Position numbers and translations under genes: made by a program. A DNA stretch of 64,000 nt, taken from positions 5,550,071-5,614,070 of the forward strand of contig MU053810.1 in NCBI GenBank assembly GCA_013239625.1. The letters run 5' to 3'. The notes under the pieces are model-generated. The model searched no databases. It saw nothing but the letters and a program-made list of their open reading frames with translations, and was not told the origin of the DNA. Of this stretch, positions 1-62,553 are shown in pieces. Source of the stretch: Lama guanicoe. Lineage: Eukaryota. The first letter of the stretch is position 1. Each line of letters starts with the position of its first letter.

Positions 1-60
1 TCCTCCAAAAATAAATAAATAAGTAAACCTAATTACCTCCCCCAACCAGGAAAAAATAAA
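1..60 (+). mobile_element. 3' part of a Vic-1-like SINE, truncated by the window edge
   Basis: CCTCC-AAAAATAAATAAATAAGTAAACCTAATTACCTCCCC matches the tails of the copies at 1858-1990 and 62412-62553. Confidence 0.75.
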
Positions 61-779
61 AGAGTTGAGGAGGTTTTTGTTGTGTTCATTTAATGTTGTT
101 GAGACTGTTTTGTGGGTAAGTTTGATGTTGTTTTTGGACTAACAGAAATTAGAATAAATTGTAAAGTAATGTTAAGGATAGTATTGAGAAAAGAGGGTTT
201 GGGAGTAAGGATCCAGATTTATGGAACACAGCTTTTCCAAGAGCAATTTTTACTTTTTGTGAGGACCGTTAGGTACATAATACAAATCCTTATTGTGGAA
301 TCTCCGTGTATTTTTGGATCATAAAAAAAAACTCTTCCAAAAGTTTGGTTCTGGGGACATGGCCATGTGACCATTTGTTCATGAAAGCTGTGTGGACCCC
401 TTAAGGCTGTCGATCTGACGTTATGCCAGACTGACTGACTTTGTTGGAAAATCACTTTGCCTGGGAAATATAAAAATGACAGGTCCCACTTAGGATCCCA
501 TCGCTATGCAAACTCCCTGTTCTTTTATTCCTCGTATCTGAAATCAATCATACCGAACCTTCTGGTCTTCCAAATCGGTGGTCCTGTATAGACTAATTAC
601 TATTTGTGGATAGTACATTTTATTAGCTGCTTTTCCATTTTTTATTATGTGCCATAAGAAACAAATAAAATTTATTTAAGAAAATAAAGGGAGGCTATAA
701 AAAAAAAGGAATTACAGTCATATAACCCAGTGCTTGAGATTAAATAAGAACTCAGAACTTTGAGGTCTGCTTTCTGTTT

Positions 780-866
780 ACTTTTAATGGAGGTACTGGG
801 GATGGAACCCAGGACCCCGTGCATGCTAAGCATGTGTTCTACCGCTTAGCTGTATCCCCCCACCCC
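780..866 (-). mobile_element. Vic-1-like tRNA-derived SINE
   Basis: Antisense tRNA-Ala-like head. TSD-like CTGCTTTCT(G/A)TTT at 767-779 and 867-879. Confidence 0.85.
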
Positions 867-1857: not shown

Positions 1858-1990
1858 TCTTTTTATTTTTTAGTGGGGGAGGTAATTAGGTTTGTTTGTT
1901 TTATTTATTTTTGGAGGAGGTACTGGTGATCAAACCCCGGACTTTGTGTATGCTAAGCATGTGCTCTGCCACCTGAGCTAGTCCCTCCTA
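1858..1990 (-). mobile_element. Vic-1-like SINE, long-tail form
   Basis: Antisense head GAGGTACTGG...ATGCTAAGCATGTGCTCT...TGAGCTA plus the GGGGAGGTAATTAGGTTT tail. Confidence 0.85.

Positions 1991-12705: not shown

Positions 12706-12764
<59 letters not shown>
12706..12764. repeat. (CA)n microsatellite, ~29 units
   Basis: Uninterrupted CA run read directly. Confidence 0.98.
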
Positions 12765-19084: not shown

Positions 19085-19176
19085 AGGAGGAGGGTATAGC
19101 TCAGTGGTAGAGCACATGCTTAGCATTTGTGAGGTTCTGGGTTCAATCCCCAGTACCTCCATTAAAGAAAAAAAAA
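19085..19176 (+). mobile_element. Vic-1-like SINE
   Basis: GGAGGGTATAGCTCAGTGGTAGAG (A box), GGGTTCAATCCC (B box) and an A tail. Confidence 0.88.
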
Positions 19177-21470: not shown

Positions 21471-21613
21471 TGAGGGAGGGTATAGCTCAGTGGTAGGGTG
21501 CTTGCCTAGCATGCATGAAGTCCTGGGTTCAATCCCCAGTACCTCCATTTTAAAATAAATAAATAGATTAGATTATAGCATGATGTCCTTAAAAAAATAA
21601 AATAAAAATATAT
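21471..21613 (+). mobile_element. Vic-1-like SINE
   Basis: A and B boxes and an A-rich tail. TSD ATACAATGATG at 21460-21470 and 21614-21624. Confidence 0.9.
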
Positions 21614-32872: not shown

Positions 32873-33626
32873 TGAGTTATAGCAAGGAAAATTAATATTT
32901 ATTTGGCATCTCAGATGTGCCAGATATAGACTAGGTGTTTTATGTCATCCTGATATCTTTTGAAGTCTTATCTCCTTTCTATAGATTGGGAACCCAAGGG
33001 AAGACAAGGATATAGTGTTGTTGTTATTTTTTGTTTTTTGGTTTTTTTTGGGGGGGGGTTCCTTCTTTATTTTCCAGTACTTGACAATGAAAATGCATTA
33101 TAACCGGAGAACTTATTCTCAGTTAGTTCCATTAATTTATACCTCAGTTATCTCCATGGCTGTTTTTCTTTCTCAATAGTCTGTCACTGATGCCTGCACC
33201 TCACTCTTAATCTCTCTTCATCTTTTCTTTTCCTGCTCTCCCCAGAGGCCTCAAGAAAATATCCCTCAGTCCCATTTGAAGGCAAGAAAATATCCTAGTT
33301 AATGTGTGAAAAGAATGATACCGGTAACAAGGAAATACCTTTGTTTAGTATTAGAGAGTTTATAGGTGCTTGGAAAGGCACTGAGATCTGTGTATGTTCC
33401 ATTCAGAATTTCCACCCTTATCCTCTTCTTGTTCAAACCCCAGGTGTTTTTTTGTTTTTTGGTTTTTGGGGGTTTTTTTTGTTGTTGGGTTTTTTTGGTT
33501 TTTTGTTGTTTTTTTTTTGCGTGCCTGAAATCAGTATTAGTTAAACATTTTTCCATTGTAGTGGCATTTTAGTGACATTTTAAGTTCACATGGGGCTAGA
33601 CTTGGTTTACTTACTTACTTATTTTT

Positions 33627-34725
33627 TTGAGGGGGAGAACATCTGTTTATTTGAGGCACCAAAGCAGCAGGGGGTTCAGTGGGGTGGGGACTGCAGCTGG
33701 ATTTGGGGGTGGGAGCAGATTCCTGGGTCAGCAGCCTAGACGTGGGACCAGTGGAAGCTCTGTGCCCTAAAAGGCTGCCCTTGGAGTAATGAAATAAGGG
33801 GTGCAGAGATGCCAGGGGAAAGGGGCTTGGGGATTCCAATGCCTACCCCCACCCCCCTCTCCCAAACCCGGGGCCCATAGGGCCCCACACACACATGCTG
33901 GGCAGGGCACACTGACCACACACCTGTCCACACAGCACATCTTCCGTACCTGGGTGTGGACAGGGCCTGGACAGGGCAGGCCTGGGGCTTAGGTGCCCCT
34001 CCCAGTGTGTCCCCGGGACCCTCAGGCTCCGTTACCAGATTCCCCCAGGAAGGCTGACCTGGAAGTAAGGGCAGCTGGCTGACCTGCCTGTGAGGACCCA
34101 GAGCCAGGCAGAGGGGGTGACAGGCAGGGTGAGAAGTCAGAGGAGGAGGCTTCGAGATCCCCGAGAGTCCAGGAGGGGCTGCGCTTTCCTTCCTTCCTGA
34201 GCTTCGGGGGTCTGGGCTGGGCACGGGGTCCCGACGATCAGGGGCCAAGCCGCAGCACGGAGGACAGCAGGCTGAGCAGGAGCCCGAGGCCCAGCACGCG
34301 GGTGCTGGCCCGCAACCCGCCATCGGCCGCACTGACCCTGCACGGGAAGCTCTGGCAGCAGCGGGTACCCACCGACGCTACTCCAAGAGTGACGCTCGGG
34401 CCGGGGCAGGTCGGGGAGCAGCCCTTGCTCGGGGTGCAGCCAAAGTCCGACGCGTTCCCGATGCCAGCGGATGCAGATACGGTCACGCAGCAGTTGTCGG
34501 AGTCAGAGCAGACGGTGGGCTTCAGGCAGTACCAACTGCTTATTCTTGCAAGAGAAGCACACCAGGGAGCGGGCTCGCTCCACACCCAGGAGGGCAGCCA
34601 GCAGCACCGACAGGAAGACCTTGATTCTGGAGCGGACAGGCGTCTGGGGCCTCACGAAGCCGAAGAAGTCAGCCCTGCTCGCGGGCGGACGCATGTGTCC
34701 GGCCTGGCCGCGCTGCTCAGCCTGT

Positions 34726-34756
<31 letters not shown>

Positions 34757-34772
34757 GAAGCCCACATCCAGC
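33627..34772 (-). pseudogene. LY6E: Processed (intronless) LY6E pseudogene containing 5'UTR, disrupted CDS (34625-34238) and 3'UTR
   Basis: The minus-strand translation gives IKVFLSVLLAALLGVERARSLVCFSC..., then after a frameshift WYCLKPTVCSDSDNCCVTVSASAGIGN...CCQSF..SAADGGLRAS..LGLGLLLSLL...LRLGP*. This matches the LY6E signal peptide, LU domain and GPI signal with no introns. The start ATG is now ATC (34623-34625) and the frameshift is near 34540. AATAAA lies at 33646-33651 (-). A 15-bp TSD TACTTACTTATTTTT lies at 33612-33626 and 34773-34787. Confidence 0.93.
34727..34756. repeat. (CCCGAG)5 hexamer repeat in the retrocopy 5'UTR
   Basis: CCCGAGCCCGAGCCCGAGCCCGAGCCCGAG read directly. Confidence 0.92.
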
Positions 34773-35355
34773 TACTTACTTATTTTTAGAGGAAGCACTG
34801 GGGAGCCCAGGACCTTGTGCATGCTAAACCCGCACTCTACCGCTTGAGCTATACCCTCCCGCTATGTGGGGCTAGACTTGGAATGCTAGCCACCATATAT
34901 GCCATTGTCAGAAAAGAAACTATGTTTCAAATTGAAAACTGGTGTCCAAGTATAAGTTTTTCAATCATTTCAGAATGTTTCTCTCAAATAGAAAATGAAT
35001 ATGTGCTTAAAAAAATTCTTTTTTAATTCATGGAAGGAACCAGCATGATGGTAAAGCCTGTTTAAAAGATTATGGGGAGAGAGAGAAGTATTTATAGCCA
35101 TTGAAAGAAAGAATACTGGACTAAGATTTTTAAATTCGATACAGAACTGGTTAATGCTCTATGGGGCAATAAAAAGGTAATCTGTGCGCTTATCTTTTAT
35201 ACAAGGCAGAAATCATTAGCACTTGTTAGACAAATTTGTTTTTGCTGGACAAAATCATTTGCATTTCTATCAGTTTTCTACAAGTGAATATCTACCCTCA
35301 CAGAGGAGTAAAATATCCTAATCCATAGGAATTACTGAGTTAAACAAAGGTTTCT

Positions 35356-48913: not shown

Positions 48914-49006
48914 AGGAATGGTAATAGCTCAGTGGTAGAGCGTGTGTTTAACAAGCACGAGGTCCTGGGTTCAATCCCTAGTCCCGCCTTCAAAAGAAAA
49001 ATCACA
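48914..49006 (+). mobile_element. tRNA-derived SINE (Vic-1-like, divergent)
   Basis: TAGCTCAGTGGTAGAGCG...GGGTTCAATCCC with an A tail and imperfect AGAAA.TTTT.AAATGA flanking repeats. Confidence 0.8.
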
Positions 49007-57439: not shown

Positions 57440-57545
57440 GTTTTTTGTTTTTGTTTTTGTTTTTTAATGGAGGGACTGGGGATTGAACCCAGGATCTCAT
57501 TCATACTAGGCATGAGCTCTACCACTGAGCTCTACCCCCACCCCT
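57440..57545 (-). mobile_element. Vic-1-like SINE
   Basis: Antisense GGGGATTGAACCCAGG...CTCTACCACTGAGCT with a (TTTTTG)n tail. Confidence 0.85.

Positions 57546-61032: not shown

Positions 61033-61072
<40 letters not shown>
61033..61072. repeat. Poly-T tract (40 nt)
   Basis: Read directly. Confidence 0.97.
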
Positions 61073-62411: not shown

Positions 62412-62553
62412 GGGGAGAGGGCATAGCTCAAGTGGTAGAGTGCATGTTTAGCATGCATAAGATCCTGGGTTCAATCCCCAGTACCTCCTCAATAAGTAAA
62501 CTTCATTACCTTCCCCGCAAAGTAAAATATTTTTTAAAAATTAAAAGAAAAAT
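62412..62553 (+). mobile_element. Vic-1-like SINE
   Basis: A and B boxes. TSD AAACAC(A/T)ACAAGTTG at 62397-62411 and 62554-62568. Confidence 0.9.

What the first reader, a model, noticed from the sequence alone, without database searches (positions are those of the whole stretch)
33591..34881. LY6E retrocopy inserted into the tail of a SINE, with two nested TSD pairs
Seen in sequence: the outer 15-bp TSD TGGGGCTAGACTTGG (33591-33605 / 34867-34881) brackets the SINE and the retrocopy together. The inner 15-bp TSD AAAAATAAGTAAGTA (minus strand; 33612-33626 / 34773-34787) brackets only the LY6E cDNA and is itself SINE tail sequence. Inference: the SINE inserted first, then L1 machinery nicked its A-rich tail and inserted an apparently full-length LY6E mRNA in the same orientation. 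This dates the retrocopy after the lineage-specific SINE and implies germline or early-embryo expression of this interferon-stimulated gene, a known modulator of viral entry including coronaviruses. The inner TSD favours nesting over a single template-switch chimera.
Basis: partly seen in the sequence, partly recalled or inferred. Interest (0 to 1): 0.7.

Follow-up and report, generated by a model that had tools for sequence, protein, structure and literature searches.

The report
Dead LY6E retrocopy nested in SINE
A broken, intron-less copy of the immune gene LY6E was pasted into the A-rich stretch of an older camelid short repeat, a well-known kind of event, but the copy has since drifted towards G/C and kept its CpGs instead of decaying, which hints that it became a recombination hotspot.

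Summary
Both 15-bp repeats are exact, occur only twice in the window and exceed chance. The insert is a camelid LY6E processed pseudogene on the minus strand: all exon junctions closed, 3' UTR and AATAAA present, ATG lost, 5-nt frameshift, 19 residue changes. It cannot encode LY6E, so the antiviral angle is moot. Nesting is well supported by anatomy: the inner repeat starts at an L1 endonuclease-type site (TTTTT/AG), homology to the parent stops there, and beyond the copy the SINE resumes with its own linker motif (TAAGTAAACC), also seen in other SINE copies of the window. Sense-strand insertion into a SINE's A-rich linker is a documented hotspot in Alu. No empty or SINE-only allele could be examined. 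This fits GC-biased gene conversion at an unmethylated island brought in by the retrocopy; it is inferred from protein comparisons only. Verdict: new member of a known kind, modest interest.

The parts
34867..34881 (-). Outer target-site duplication, 5' copy (exact 15 nt; may extend to 34864 through one decayed CpG)
34788..34863 (-). tRNA-like head and body of a camelid SINE (vic-1-like); A box present, B box broken by a 4-nt deletion
   Evidence: name vic-1 inferred from PMC3531059 passages, consensus not compared
34773..34787 (-). Inner target-site duplication, 5' copy = start of the SINE's A-rich linker; begins at a TTTTT/AG endonuclease-type site on the + strand
34626..34772 (-). LY6E 5' UTR (exon 1 and start of exon 2, junction closed); CpG o/e 0.84; hexamer repeat 34726-34756 longer by two units than in alpaca isoform X1
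34238..34625 (-). Disabled LY6E coding region: ATG reads ATC, 5-nt deletion at codon 30 (about 34540), 19 changed residues of 129 compared, stop codon at 34238-34240
34298..34537 (-). Tract (codons 32-111) holding all 14 A/T-to-G/C amino-acid-changing substitutions; candidate GC-biased gene conversion footprint
34238..34772 (.). CpG-island-like block: 535 bp, GC 0.68, 46 CpG, o/e 0.74, against GC 0.38 and o/e 0.21 in the rest of the window
33629..34237 (-). LY6E 3' UTR with AATAAA at 33646-33651, 17 nt before the A run; homology to LY6E 3' UTR shown to 34124 through a whale read-through protein
33627..33628 (-). Residual poly(A): 2 A beyond the inner repeat (7 A run in all)
   Evidence: sequence
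33612..33626 (-). Inner target-site duplication, 3' copy
33604..33611 (-). Remainder of the SINE linker, resuming after the retrocopy; the motif ending TAAGTAAACC is also in the SINE copy at window 1-45 and nearly so at 62494; last two bases overlap the outer repeat
33591..33605 (-). Outer target-site duplication, 3' copy (may extend to 33588)

Best explanation
Two successive L1-mediated insertions, then pseudogene drift under a GC-favouring force. Step 1 (inferred): a camelid tRNA-derived SINE, ending in its A-rich linker, inserted with the outer duplication. Step 2 (inferred, strongly supported by anatomy): L1 endonuclease nicked the T-rich strand of that linker at TTTTT/AG, the T run primed on the poly(A) of a spliced LY6E mRNA, and repair duplicated 15 nt of linker, leaving the SINE split around a same-sense cDNA. 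Step 3 (shown at protein level): the copy lost its start codon and frame, so it is a dead processed pseudogene. Step 4 (pattern shown, cause inferred, about 0.5 on its own): the imported CpG-rich 5' half stayed unmethylated in the germ line and was subject to GC-biased gene conversion, which explains the A/T-to-G/C excess and the surviving CpGs.
For: Two exact, unique 15-mers, beyond chance. Inner repeat starts at TTATTTTT/AGAG on the nicked strand, the same TTTT|AG site described for sense insertions into the Alu linker (PMC2836564, passages); 14-16 bp is the modal L1 TSD length (PMC2912911, passages). Parent homology ends at the inner repeat: 2 of 27 residues identical upstream against 83% over the 77 aligned positions downstream. 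After the copy the sequence resumes with the SINE linker motif found in other copies. Three junctions inferred from isoform divergence (5' UTR, residue 19, residue 58) are all contiguous. Camel-type residues at 5 of 7 diagnostic sites, the other two derivable from the camel residue by one change. Substitutions: 14 W>S vs 4 S>W, P 1.8e-7, 6e-4 and 7e-3 under three nulls with recalled rates; transitions at 13 of 105 A/T sites vs 1 of 118 G/C sites, 0 of 25 CpG positions, Fisher P 4e-4; both strands contribute, A>G 8 of 41, T>C 5 of 64.
Against: No empty or SINE-only allele was seen, so the order rests on anatomy alone. The poly(A) tail is almost absent (2 A beyond the repeat). The outer repeat does not begin at a canonical EN site. 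The GC bias was noticed post hoc, rests on 18 classified non-synonymous changes, with no nucleotide alignment to the parent; the SINE head shows no clear bias (5 W>S vs 4 S>W, against 20 vs 29 in seven other copies); of other LY6E-like proteins only the baleen-whale cluster shows it, not the dolphin (4 vs 6) or pig (6 vs 9, frameshift-confounded) entries. Camelids are not among the species found in the supplements of PMC11161765.
Confidence: 0.8

Rival explanations
1. Single-event template-switch chimera: L1 RT copied LY6E mRNA, then switched to a SINE RNA; only the outer repeat is a TSD, and the 3' (TAAG)n arose from decay of the poly(A) tail.
For: Layout (small Pol III RNA 5' of an mRNA copy, same sense, one outer TSD pair) matches U6-type chimeras (PMC4476161, passages). 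No SINE-only allele was seen.
Against: The 3' end is not plain poly(A): it repeats 15 nt of the SINE linker exactly and goes on into the linker's own TAAGTAAACC motif; (TAAG)2 or longer occurs at only 2 other places in 64 kb; the inner repeat starts at an EN-type site, the outer does not. PMC1687206 (passages) uses the same logic, one TSD per element, to prefer successive events.
Confidence: 0.06
2. The SINE-LY6E composite was formed at another locus and re-retroposed here as one unit (the caveat raised in PMC1687206).
For: Would also give two nested repeats; a diverged donor could inflate the distance to the parent (21 minimal steps over 284 non-synonymous sites).
Against: No poly(A) tail at the outer 3' end; a TTTT at 33769-33772 on the sense strand would end a Pol III transcript before the 3' end; no second copy in the window. 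The rest of the genome could not be searched.
Confidence: 0.05
3. Reverse order: LY6E copy first (outer repeat is its TSD), SINE added later at its 5' junction.
For: None beyond adjacency.
Against: The SINE has no repeat pair of its own around it in this reading, and the SINE linker at the 3' end of the copy is left unexplained.
Confidence: 0.02
4. For the substitution pattern only: no gBGC. The block is merely unmethylated and the A/T-to-G/C excess is a chance cluster, or was imported in one step by gene conversion from (or retroposition of) another diverged LY6E copy, or by RNA editing of the template.
For: Small numbers, post hoc; the changes are clustered in 240 bp (P 0.007), as a conversion tract would be; three or four derived residues are shared with a baleen-whale LY6E-like protein; no bias in the SINE head. 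About 15% of 104 human retrocopy-like intronic CGIs are unmethylated (PMC4122923, passages).
Against: The excess remains under an unmethylated null (P 6e-4) and a no-bias null (P 7e-3). T>C changes on the mRNA strand (5) are not expected from A-to-I editing. The whale protein carries whale residues at diagnostic sites, the overlap is not significant (P 0.08), and H90R is absent from the bowhead entry, so the sharing looks convergent. A diverged donor only moves the question elsewhere.
Confidence: 0.35
5. Functional or regulatory retrogene (protein, or RNA acting on LY6E or on viral entry).
For: Keeps a CpG island; retrocopy promoters often lie in CpG islands (PMC4772013, passages).
Against: ATG lost, frameshift at codon 30, two extra cysteines and two Leu-to-Pro changes in the three-finger domain; SINE B box broken.
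Confidence: 0.04

Closest known systems
L1-mediated processed pseudogenes (mRNA retrocopies with 14-16 bp TSD at TTTT/AA-type sites; PMC2912911, passages)
   Same: Spliced mRNA copy, poly(A) signal, 15-bp TSD at an EN-type site, disabling mutations.
   Different: Poly(A) almost gone; target is a SINE linker; substitutions run towards G/C instead of the usual CpG decay (the usual direction is recalled knowledge).
Sense-strand insertions into the A-rich linker or tail of existing Alus (PMC2836564: 15,759 sense Alu-in-Alu insertions, nick at TTTT|AG; PMC3783187: 20 of 961 in same-strand tail regions, explained by EN 6-mer preference; passages)
   Same: Same target type, same nick motif, same orientation, host element resumes on the far side.
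   Different: Host is a camelid tRNA-derived SINE and the passenger is an mRNA rather than a SINE; the whole 15 nt is recognisable because the linker carries G.
snoRNA retroposons nested in or next to other retroposons, each with its own TSD (Weber 2006, PMC1687206, passages)
   Same: Nested TSD pairs used to infer successive events; same caveat about a pre-formed composite.
   Different: There the order was checked against other genomes; here it could not be.
U6/L1 and U6/processed-pseudogene template-switch chimeras (PMC4476161, passages)
   Same: Pol III RNA sequence 5' of an mRNA copy, same sense.
   Different: Chimeras have one TSD pair and end in the 3' partner's poly(A); this has two pairs and ends in SINE linker.
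gBGC at germline-unmethylated CpG islands / PRDM9-independent hotspots (PMC4350167 in dog; PMC11161765 in 52 mammals; PMC11170920 on orphan CGIs; passages)
   Same: CpG island, suppressed CpG decay, W>S excess, clustered changes.
   Different: Island was imported by retroposition into AT-rich DNA; methylation and recombination not measured; camelids not found in the PMC11161765 supplements.

Membership tests
L1-mediated processed pseudogene | Introns of the parent removed | tested here: met
   Residues 1-130 align without intron-sized gaps; three junction positions inferred from isoform divergence are contiguous. Parent gene DNA itself not seen.
L1-mediated processed pseudogene | Flanking TSD of about 15 bp at an EN-type site | tested here: met
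   Exact 15-mer, TTTTT/AG
L1-mediated processed pseudogene | Poly(A) signal followed by poly(A) tail | tested here: inconclusive
   AATAAA 17 nt upstream; only 2 A beyond the TSD, 7 in all
L1-mediated processed pseudogene | Homology to the parent stops at the insertion boundary | tested here: met
   2 of 27 residues identical to alpaca isoform X1 upstream of the boundary
L1-mediated processed pseudogene | Disabling mutations | tested here: met
   ATG>ATC, 5-nt deletion
vic-1 camelid SINE | tRNA-derived head with A-rich 3' part, dispersed copies | tested here: met
   Aligns with seven other copies in the window, six of which Rfam scores as tRNA; this copy itself is not called by ARAGORN or Rfam
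vic-1 camelid SINE | Identity to the published vic-1 consensus | not testable with these tools
   SINEBase supplements not readable; name rests on the passage naming vic-1 as the simple SINE of camels and on recall
Nested insertion into a SINE linker | Each element has its own TSD and the host resumes beyond the passenger | tested here: met
Nested insertion into a SINE linker | Orthologous SINE-only or empty allele | not testable with these tools
   No genome held; no reads laid; metagenome scan empty and uninformative
Template-switch chimera | One TSD pair; 3' end is the poly(A) of the 3' partner | tested here: not met
   Two pairs; 3' end is SINE linker
Functional retrogene | Intact start codon and reading frame | tested here: not met
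Functional retrogene | Copy-specific transcripts | not tested
gBGC tract at an unmethylated CpG island | CpG-island composition | tested here: met
   535 bp, GC 0.68, o/e 0.74; only such block in the window
gBGC tract at an unmethylated CpG island | W>S excess on both strands and suppressed CpG decay | tested here: met
   14 vs 4; 0 of 25 CpG positions; A>G 8, T>C 5; non-synonymous sites only
gBGC tract at an unmethylated CpG island | Bias extends to neighbouring neutral DNA | tested here: inconclusive
   SINE head 5 vs 4, other copies 20 vs 29; UTRs and flanks could not be polarised
gBGC tract at an unmethylated CpG island | Germline hypomethylation, elevated recombination, GC alleles at higher frequency | not testable with these tools
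   No methylome, map or genotype data available here

The most novel reading that the evidence does not exclude
By importing LY6E's CpG island into AT-rich DNA, the retrocopy created a new, long-lived PRDM9-independent recombination hotspot, whose GC-biased conversion then protected and enlarged the island (a self-reinforcing loop), and an independent LY6E-like copy in baleen whales did the same with convergent changes. Retrocopies would then be dated natural experiments showing that sequence alone can seed a default hotspot.
Probability: 0.3. Interest if true: 0.62.

Novelty: new member of a known kind. Interest (0 to 1): 0.33.

Why it matters
The nesting itself is a tidy teaching example and a usable phylogenetic marker, not new biology: A-rich SINE linkers are known L1 targets. 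The copy cannot make LY6E, so it says nothing about camelid antiviral defence. What could matter is the substitution pattern: because the parent protein is nearly invariant in camelids (1-2 differences among three proteins), the ancestral state of the copy is known, and a dead CpG-rich insert that gains G/C in 38% GC surroundings makes it testable whether an inserted CpG island is enough to attract recombination.

Tried and rejected
No whole genome is held, so parent locus and other copies could not be searched. Laying reads on the locus gave no result; this leaves open the empty / SINE-only allele test, the nucleotide alignment to the parent mRNA, and expression. An exact scan of metagenome contigs with a flank motif found 0 matches, but a control with a SINE-linker motif also found 0, so the collection seems to hold no such host DNA and the blank means nothing. 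Pfam scan of 121 stop-to-stop frames of 70 aa or more outside the insert gave one sub-threshold hit only: the host context (intron or intergenic) is unresolved. Orthology with the whale LY6E-like protein was considered because of shared derived residues and rejected (lineage-diagnostic residues). A parental origin of the SINE (SINE inside the LY6E transcript) was rejected. A cap-derived G at the 5' junction is possible (alpaca codon is Pro, the copy reads Ala) but cannot be told from a one-base loss in an extended TSD. SINEBase supplements were unreadable and may hold the vic-1 consensus. PMC10487017 passages had no bearing. Literature: none of the 20 listed of 392 papers mentions LY6E, and one search found 0 papers with all six terms; one search listed 3 papers, none on retrocopies as gBGC targets by their abstracts or the passages read. 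These searches cover an open-access library only. Look-ups of earlier findings near this place, by LY6E sequence and in relatives were empty.

Full report
Observation. The outer 15-mer lies at 33591-33605 and 34867-34881, the inner at 33612-33626 and 34773-34787. Each occurs only twice on either strand of the window, and 0 of 19,012 random pairs of 40-nt windows 1.0-1.5 kb apart share 15 nt or more (longest 14, in 3 pairs). On the minus strand the order is: outer repeat, SINE head, inner repeat, insert, two extra A, inner repeat, six more linker bases, outer repeat. The outer repeat's true ends are soft. Three more bases match if one CpG became CA in one copy and TG in the other, and its first two bases may be SINE linker.

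The insert is LY6E. The frame 34241-34540 found 62 proteins among 103 candidates, best Camelus bactrianus LY6E (E 7e-47). tblastn of nine parent-type proteins against the window aligned residues 1-29 (90%) and 31-130 (84%) in two frames, with a 5-nt deletion at codon 30 and ATC in place of the start codon. Isoform pairs from pig and cat diverge at a 5' UTR point, residue 19 and residue 58, which I read as splice junctions; the window is contiguous across all three. A whale read-through protein extends the match into the 3' UTR as far as 34124. AATAAA lies 17 nt before the A run, which has only 2 A beyond the repeat. The N-terminal extension of alpaca isoform X1, a translated 5' UTR, matches from 34769 on (83% over 77 positions including residues 1-29). 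Upstream of that only 2 of 27 residues match, so the SINE is not part of the parent transcript. That model reaches 27 codons further upstream, so 'full-length' is unproven. At seven lineage-diagnostic residues the copy has the camel state at five, and one-step derivatives of it at two. It is a camelid-lineage, dead processed pseudogene.

The host SINE. The 79-nt head aligns with seven other copies in the window, six of which Rfam scores as tRNA. SINEBase names vic-1 as the simple SINE of camels (PMC3531059, passages); its consensus could not be read, so the name is inferred. Copies at window 1-45, 1893 and 62494 continue from the A-rich linker into a C-rich terminal segment. The copy at 1-45 has the same TAAGTAAACC motif that follows the LY6E insert. 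So the bases after the retrocopy are the SINE's linker resuming, not a decayed poly(A). This SINE stops there, and its B box is broken by a 4-nt deletion (the box pattern is recalled and also fails in 2 of the 7 other copies).

Mechanism of the nest. The inner repeat begins at TTATTTTT/AGAG on the plus strand. PMC2836564 (passages) describes 15,759 sense Alu-in-Alu insertions with a hotspot at the A-rich linker, a first nick at TTTT|AG, and the T run pairing with the incoming poly(A). PMC3783187 (passages) found 20 of 961 polymorphic Alus in same-strand tail regions, as predicted from endonuclease 6-mer preference. PMC2912911 (passages) gives 14-16 bp as the modal TSD. PMC1687206 (passages) uses one TSD per element to prefer successive events over template switching, and notes that a composite could be pre-formed. 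A template-switch chimera (PMC4476161, passages) predicts one repeat pair and a plain poly(A) end, which is not what is seen. A re-retroposed composite lacks an outer tail and would cross a TTTT terminator at 33769-33772. Against my reading: the outer repeat does not start at a canonical site, the poly(A) is nearly absent, and no SINE-only allele was seen.

Distribution and age. No genome is held. Of 24 runs listed for 33522-35345, 14 hold 0.83-0.91 of 194 sampled words; they fall under four organism labels and six studies. The insert with its SINE is 69% of that stretch, so these runs must hold it in nearly identical form. One may be the source sample, and none was laid, so contiguity is not shown (one search gave no result). 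The list shows best holders only and says nothing about empty alleles. In the translated 5' UTR the copy differs from alpaca at 6 of 44 positions, and pig sides with the copy at three of them, so the parent has also changed since the copy was made: it is not young. I give no date.

An unexpected substitution pattern. The three camelid LY6E proteins differ by 1-2 residues, while the copy differs at 19 of 129 codons (at least 21 base changes over 284 non-synonymous sites). Classified changes are 14 A/T>G/C, 4 G/C>A/T and 1 G>C; two further steps were ambiguous and left out. The expected W>S share is 0.20 under a methylated null, 0.38 unmethylated and 0.47 with no bias (rates recalled), giving P 1.8e-7, 6e-4 and 7e-3. 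Transitions hit 13 of 105 A/T sites, 1 of 118 G/C sites, and 0 of the 25 CpG positions among the latter (Fisher P 4e-4). Six of the 14 create a CpG. Both strands contribute (A>G 8 of 41, T>C 5 of 64, P 0.13), which argues against RNA editing alone, and all 14 lie in codons 32-111 (P 0.007, post hoc). The block 34238-34772 has GC 0.68 and CpG o/e 0.74 against 0.38 and 0.21 elsewhere, and is the only island-like stretch in the window. This is the signature reported for gBGC at unmethylated CpG islands in dog (PMC4350167, passages) and at PRDM9-independent hotspots in most of 52 mammals, though not some cetaceans (PMC11161765, passages; no camelid name in four supplementary files). PMC11170920 (passages) names gBGC and insertions as sources of orphan islands. 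Retrocopy-borne islands are known, about 15% of 104 unmethylated (PMC4122923, passages; see also PMC4772013, passages). Limits: small numbers, non-synonymous sites only, no parent DNA, and no clear bias in the SINE head (5 vs 4; 20 vs 29 in seven other copies). Among other LY6E-like proteins, the baleen-whale cluster shows 8-10 W>S vs 2-4 S>W in five full-length entries (one shared history, not five tests; the partial bowhead entry 4 vs 3), while dolphin (4 vs 6), porpoise (1 vs 1) and pig (6 vs 9, confounded by a frameshift) do not. I did not see DNA for any of these. Three unchecked earlier notes of this scan describe the same pattern in ARHGDIA, POP7 and SRSF2 retrocopies of other genomes; I had stated the idea before reading them, and they are leads, not support.

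Biological weight. LY6E is described as ubiquitously expressed and required for mouse placental development (PMC6127192, passages), and as a coronavirus entry inhibitor (PMC7459569, search listing). A heritable retrocopy therefore needs no special explanation, and LY6E-like extra copies are annotated in whales, dolphins and pig. This copy cannot make the protein. My searches found no paper on a LY6E retrocopy, within an open-access library.

Verdict. Real feature, correctly described, most likely a two-step L1 nest (about 0.85 for the order on its own). It is a new member of a known kind. The GC-ward drift is the part worth a follow-up; its cause is inferred (about 0.5 for gBGC, 0.3 for the stronger claim that the insert seeded a lasting hotspot). 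Interest 0.33.

Noticed in passing
window 1-45 (+, linker and end only), 778-861 (-), 1901-1988 (-), 19089-19166 (+), 21474-21565 (+), 48924-48982 (+), 57467-57540 (-), 62417-62499 (+): Eight further copies of the same tRNA-derived SINE; ARAGORN calls four of them tRNA genes and Rfam six. Three keep a C-rich terminal segment after the A-rich linker.
   Followed up: partly
proteins P0021, P0081-P0087 (baleen whales): A whale LY6E-like cluster with an open frame shows the same A/T-to-G/C drift and shares H90R, L96P and I99V with the camelid copy, apparently by convergence; the minke entry reads through the stop. Whether it is a retrocopy was not checked.
   Followed up: partly
window 34772: First base of the insert is G where the alpaca codon implies C: possible reverse-transcribed cap, or a one-base loss in a longer TSD.
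   Followed up: partly
window 34726-34756: Perfect hexamer repeat (5.2 units) in the 5' UTR, two units longer than in alpaca isoform X1; adds CpGs.
   Followed up: no
   Followed up: no
window 33588-33590 and 34864-34866: Bases next to the outer repeat read TG and CA, as if one ancestral CpG decayed in opposite directions in the two copies, while CpGs inside the insert survived.
   Followed up: no
window 12706-12764, 33445-33519, 61033-61072: (CA)29.5 microsatellite, a 75-bp T/G low-complexity tract just left of the insertion, and a T40 run.
   Followed up: no
window 1-64000: No Pfam domain above cut-off in 121 frames of 70 aa or more outside the insert; host gene context unknown.
   Followed up: partly
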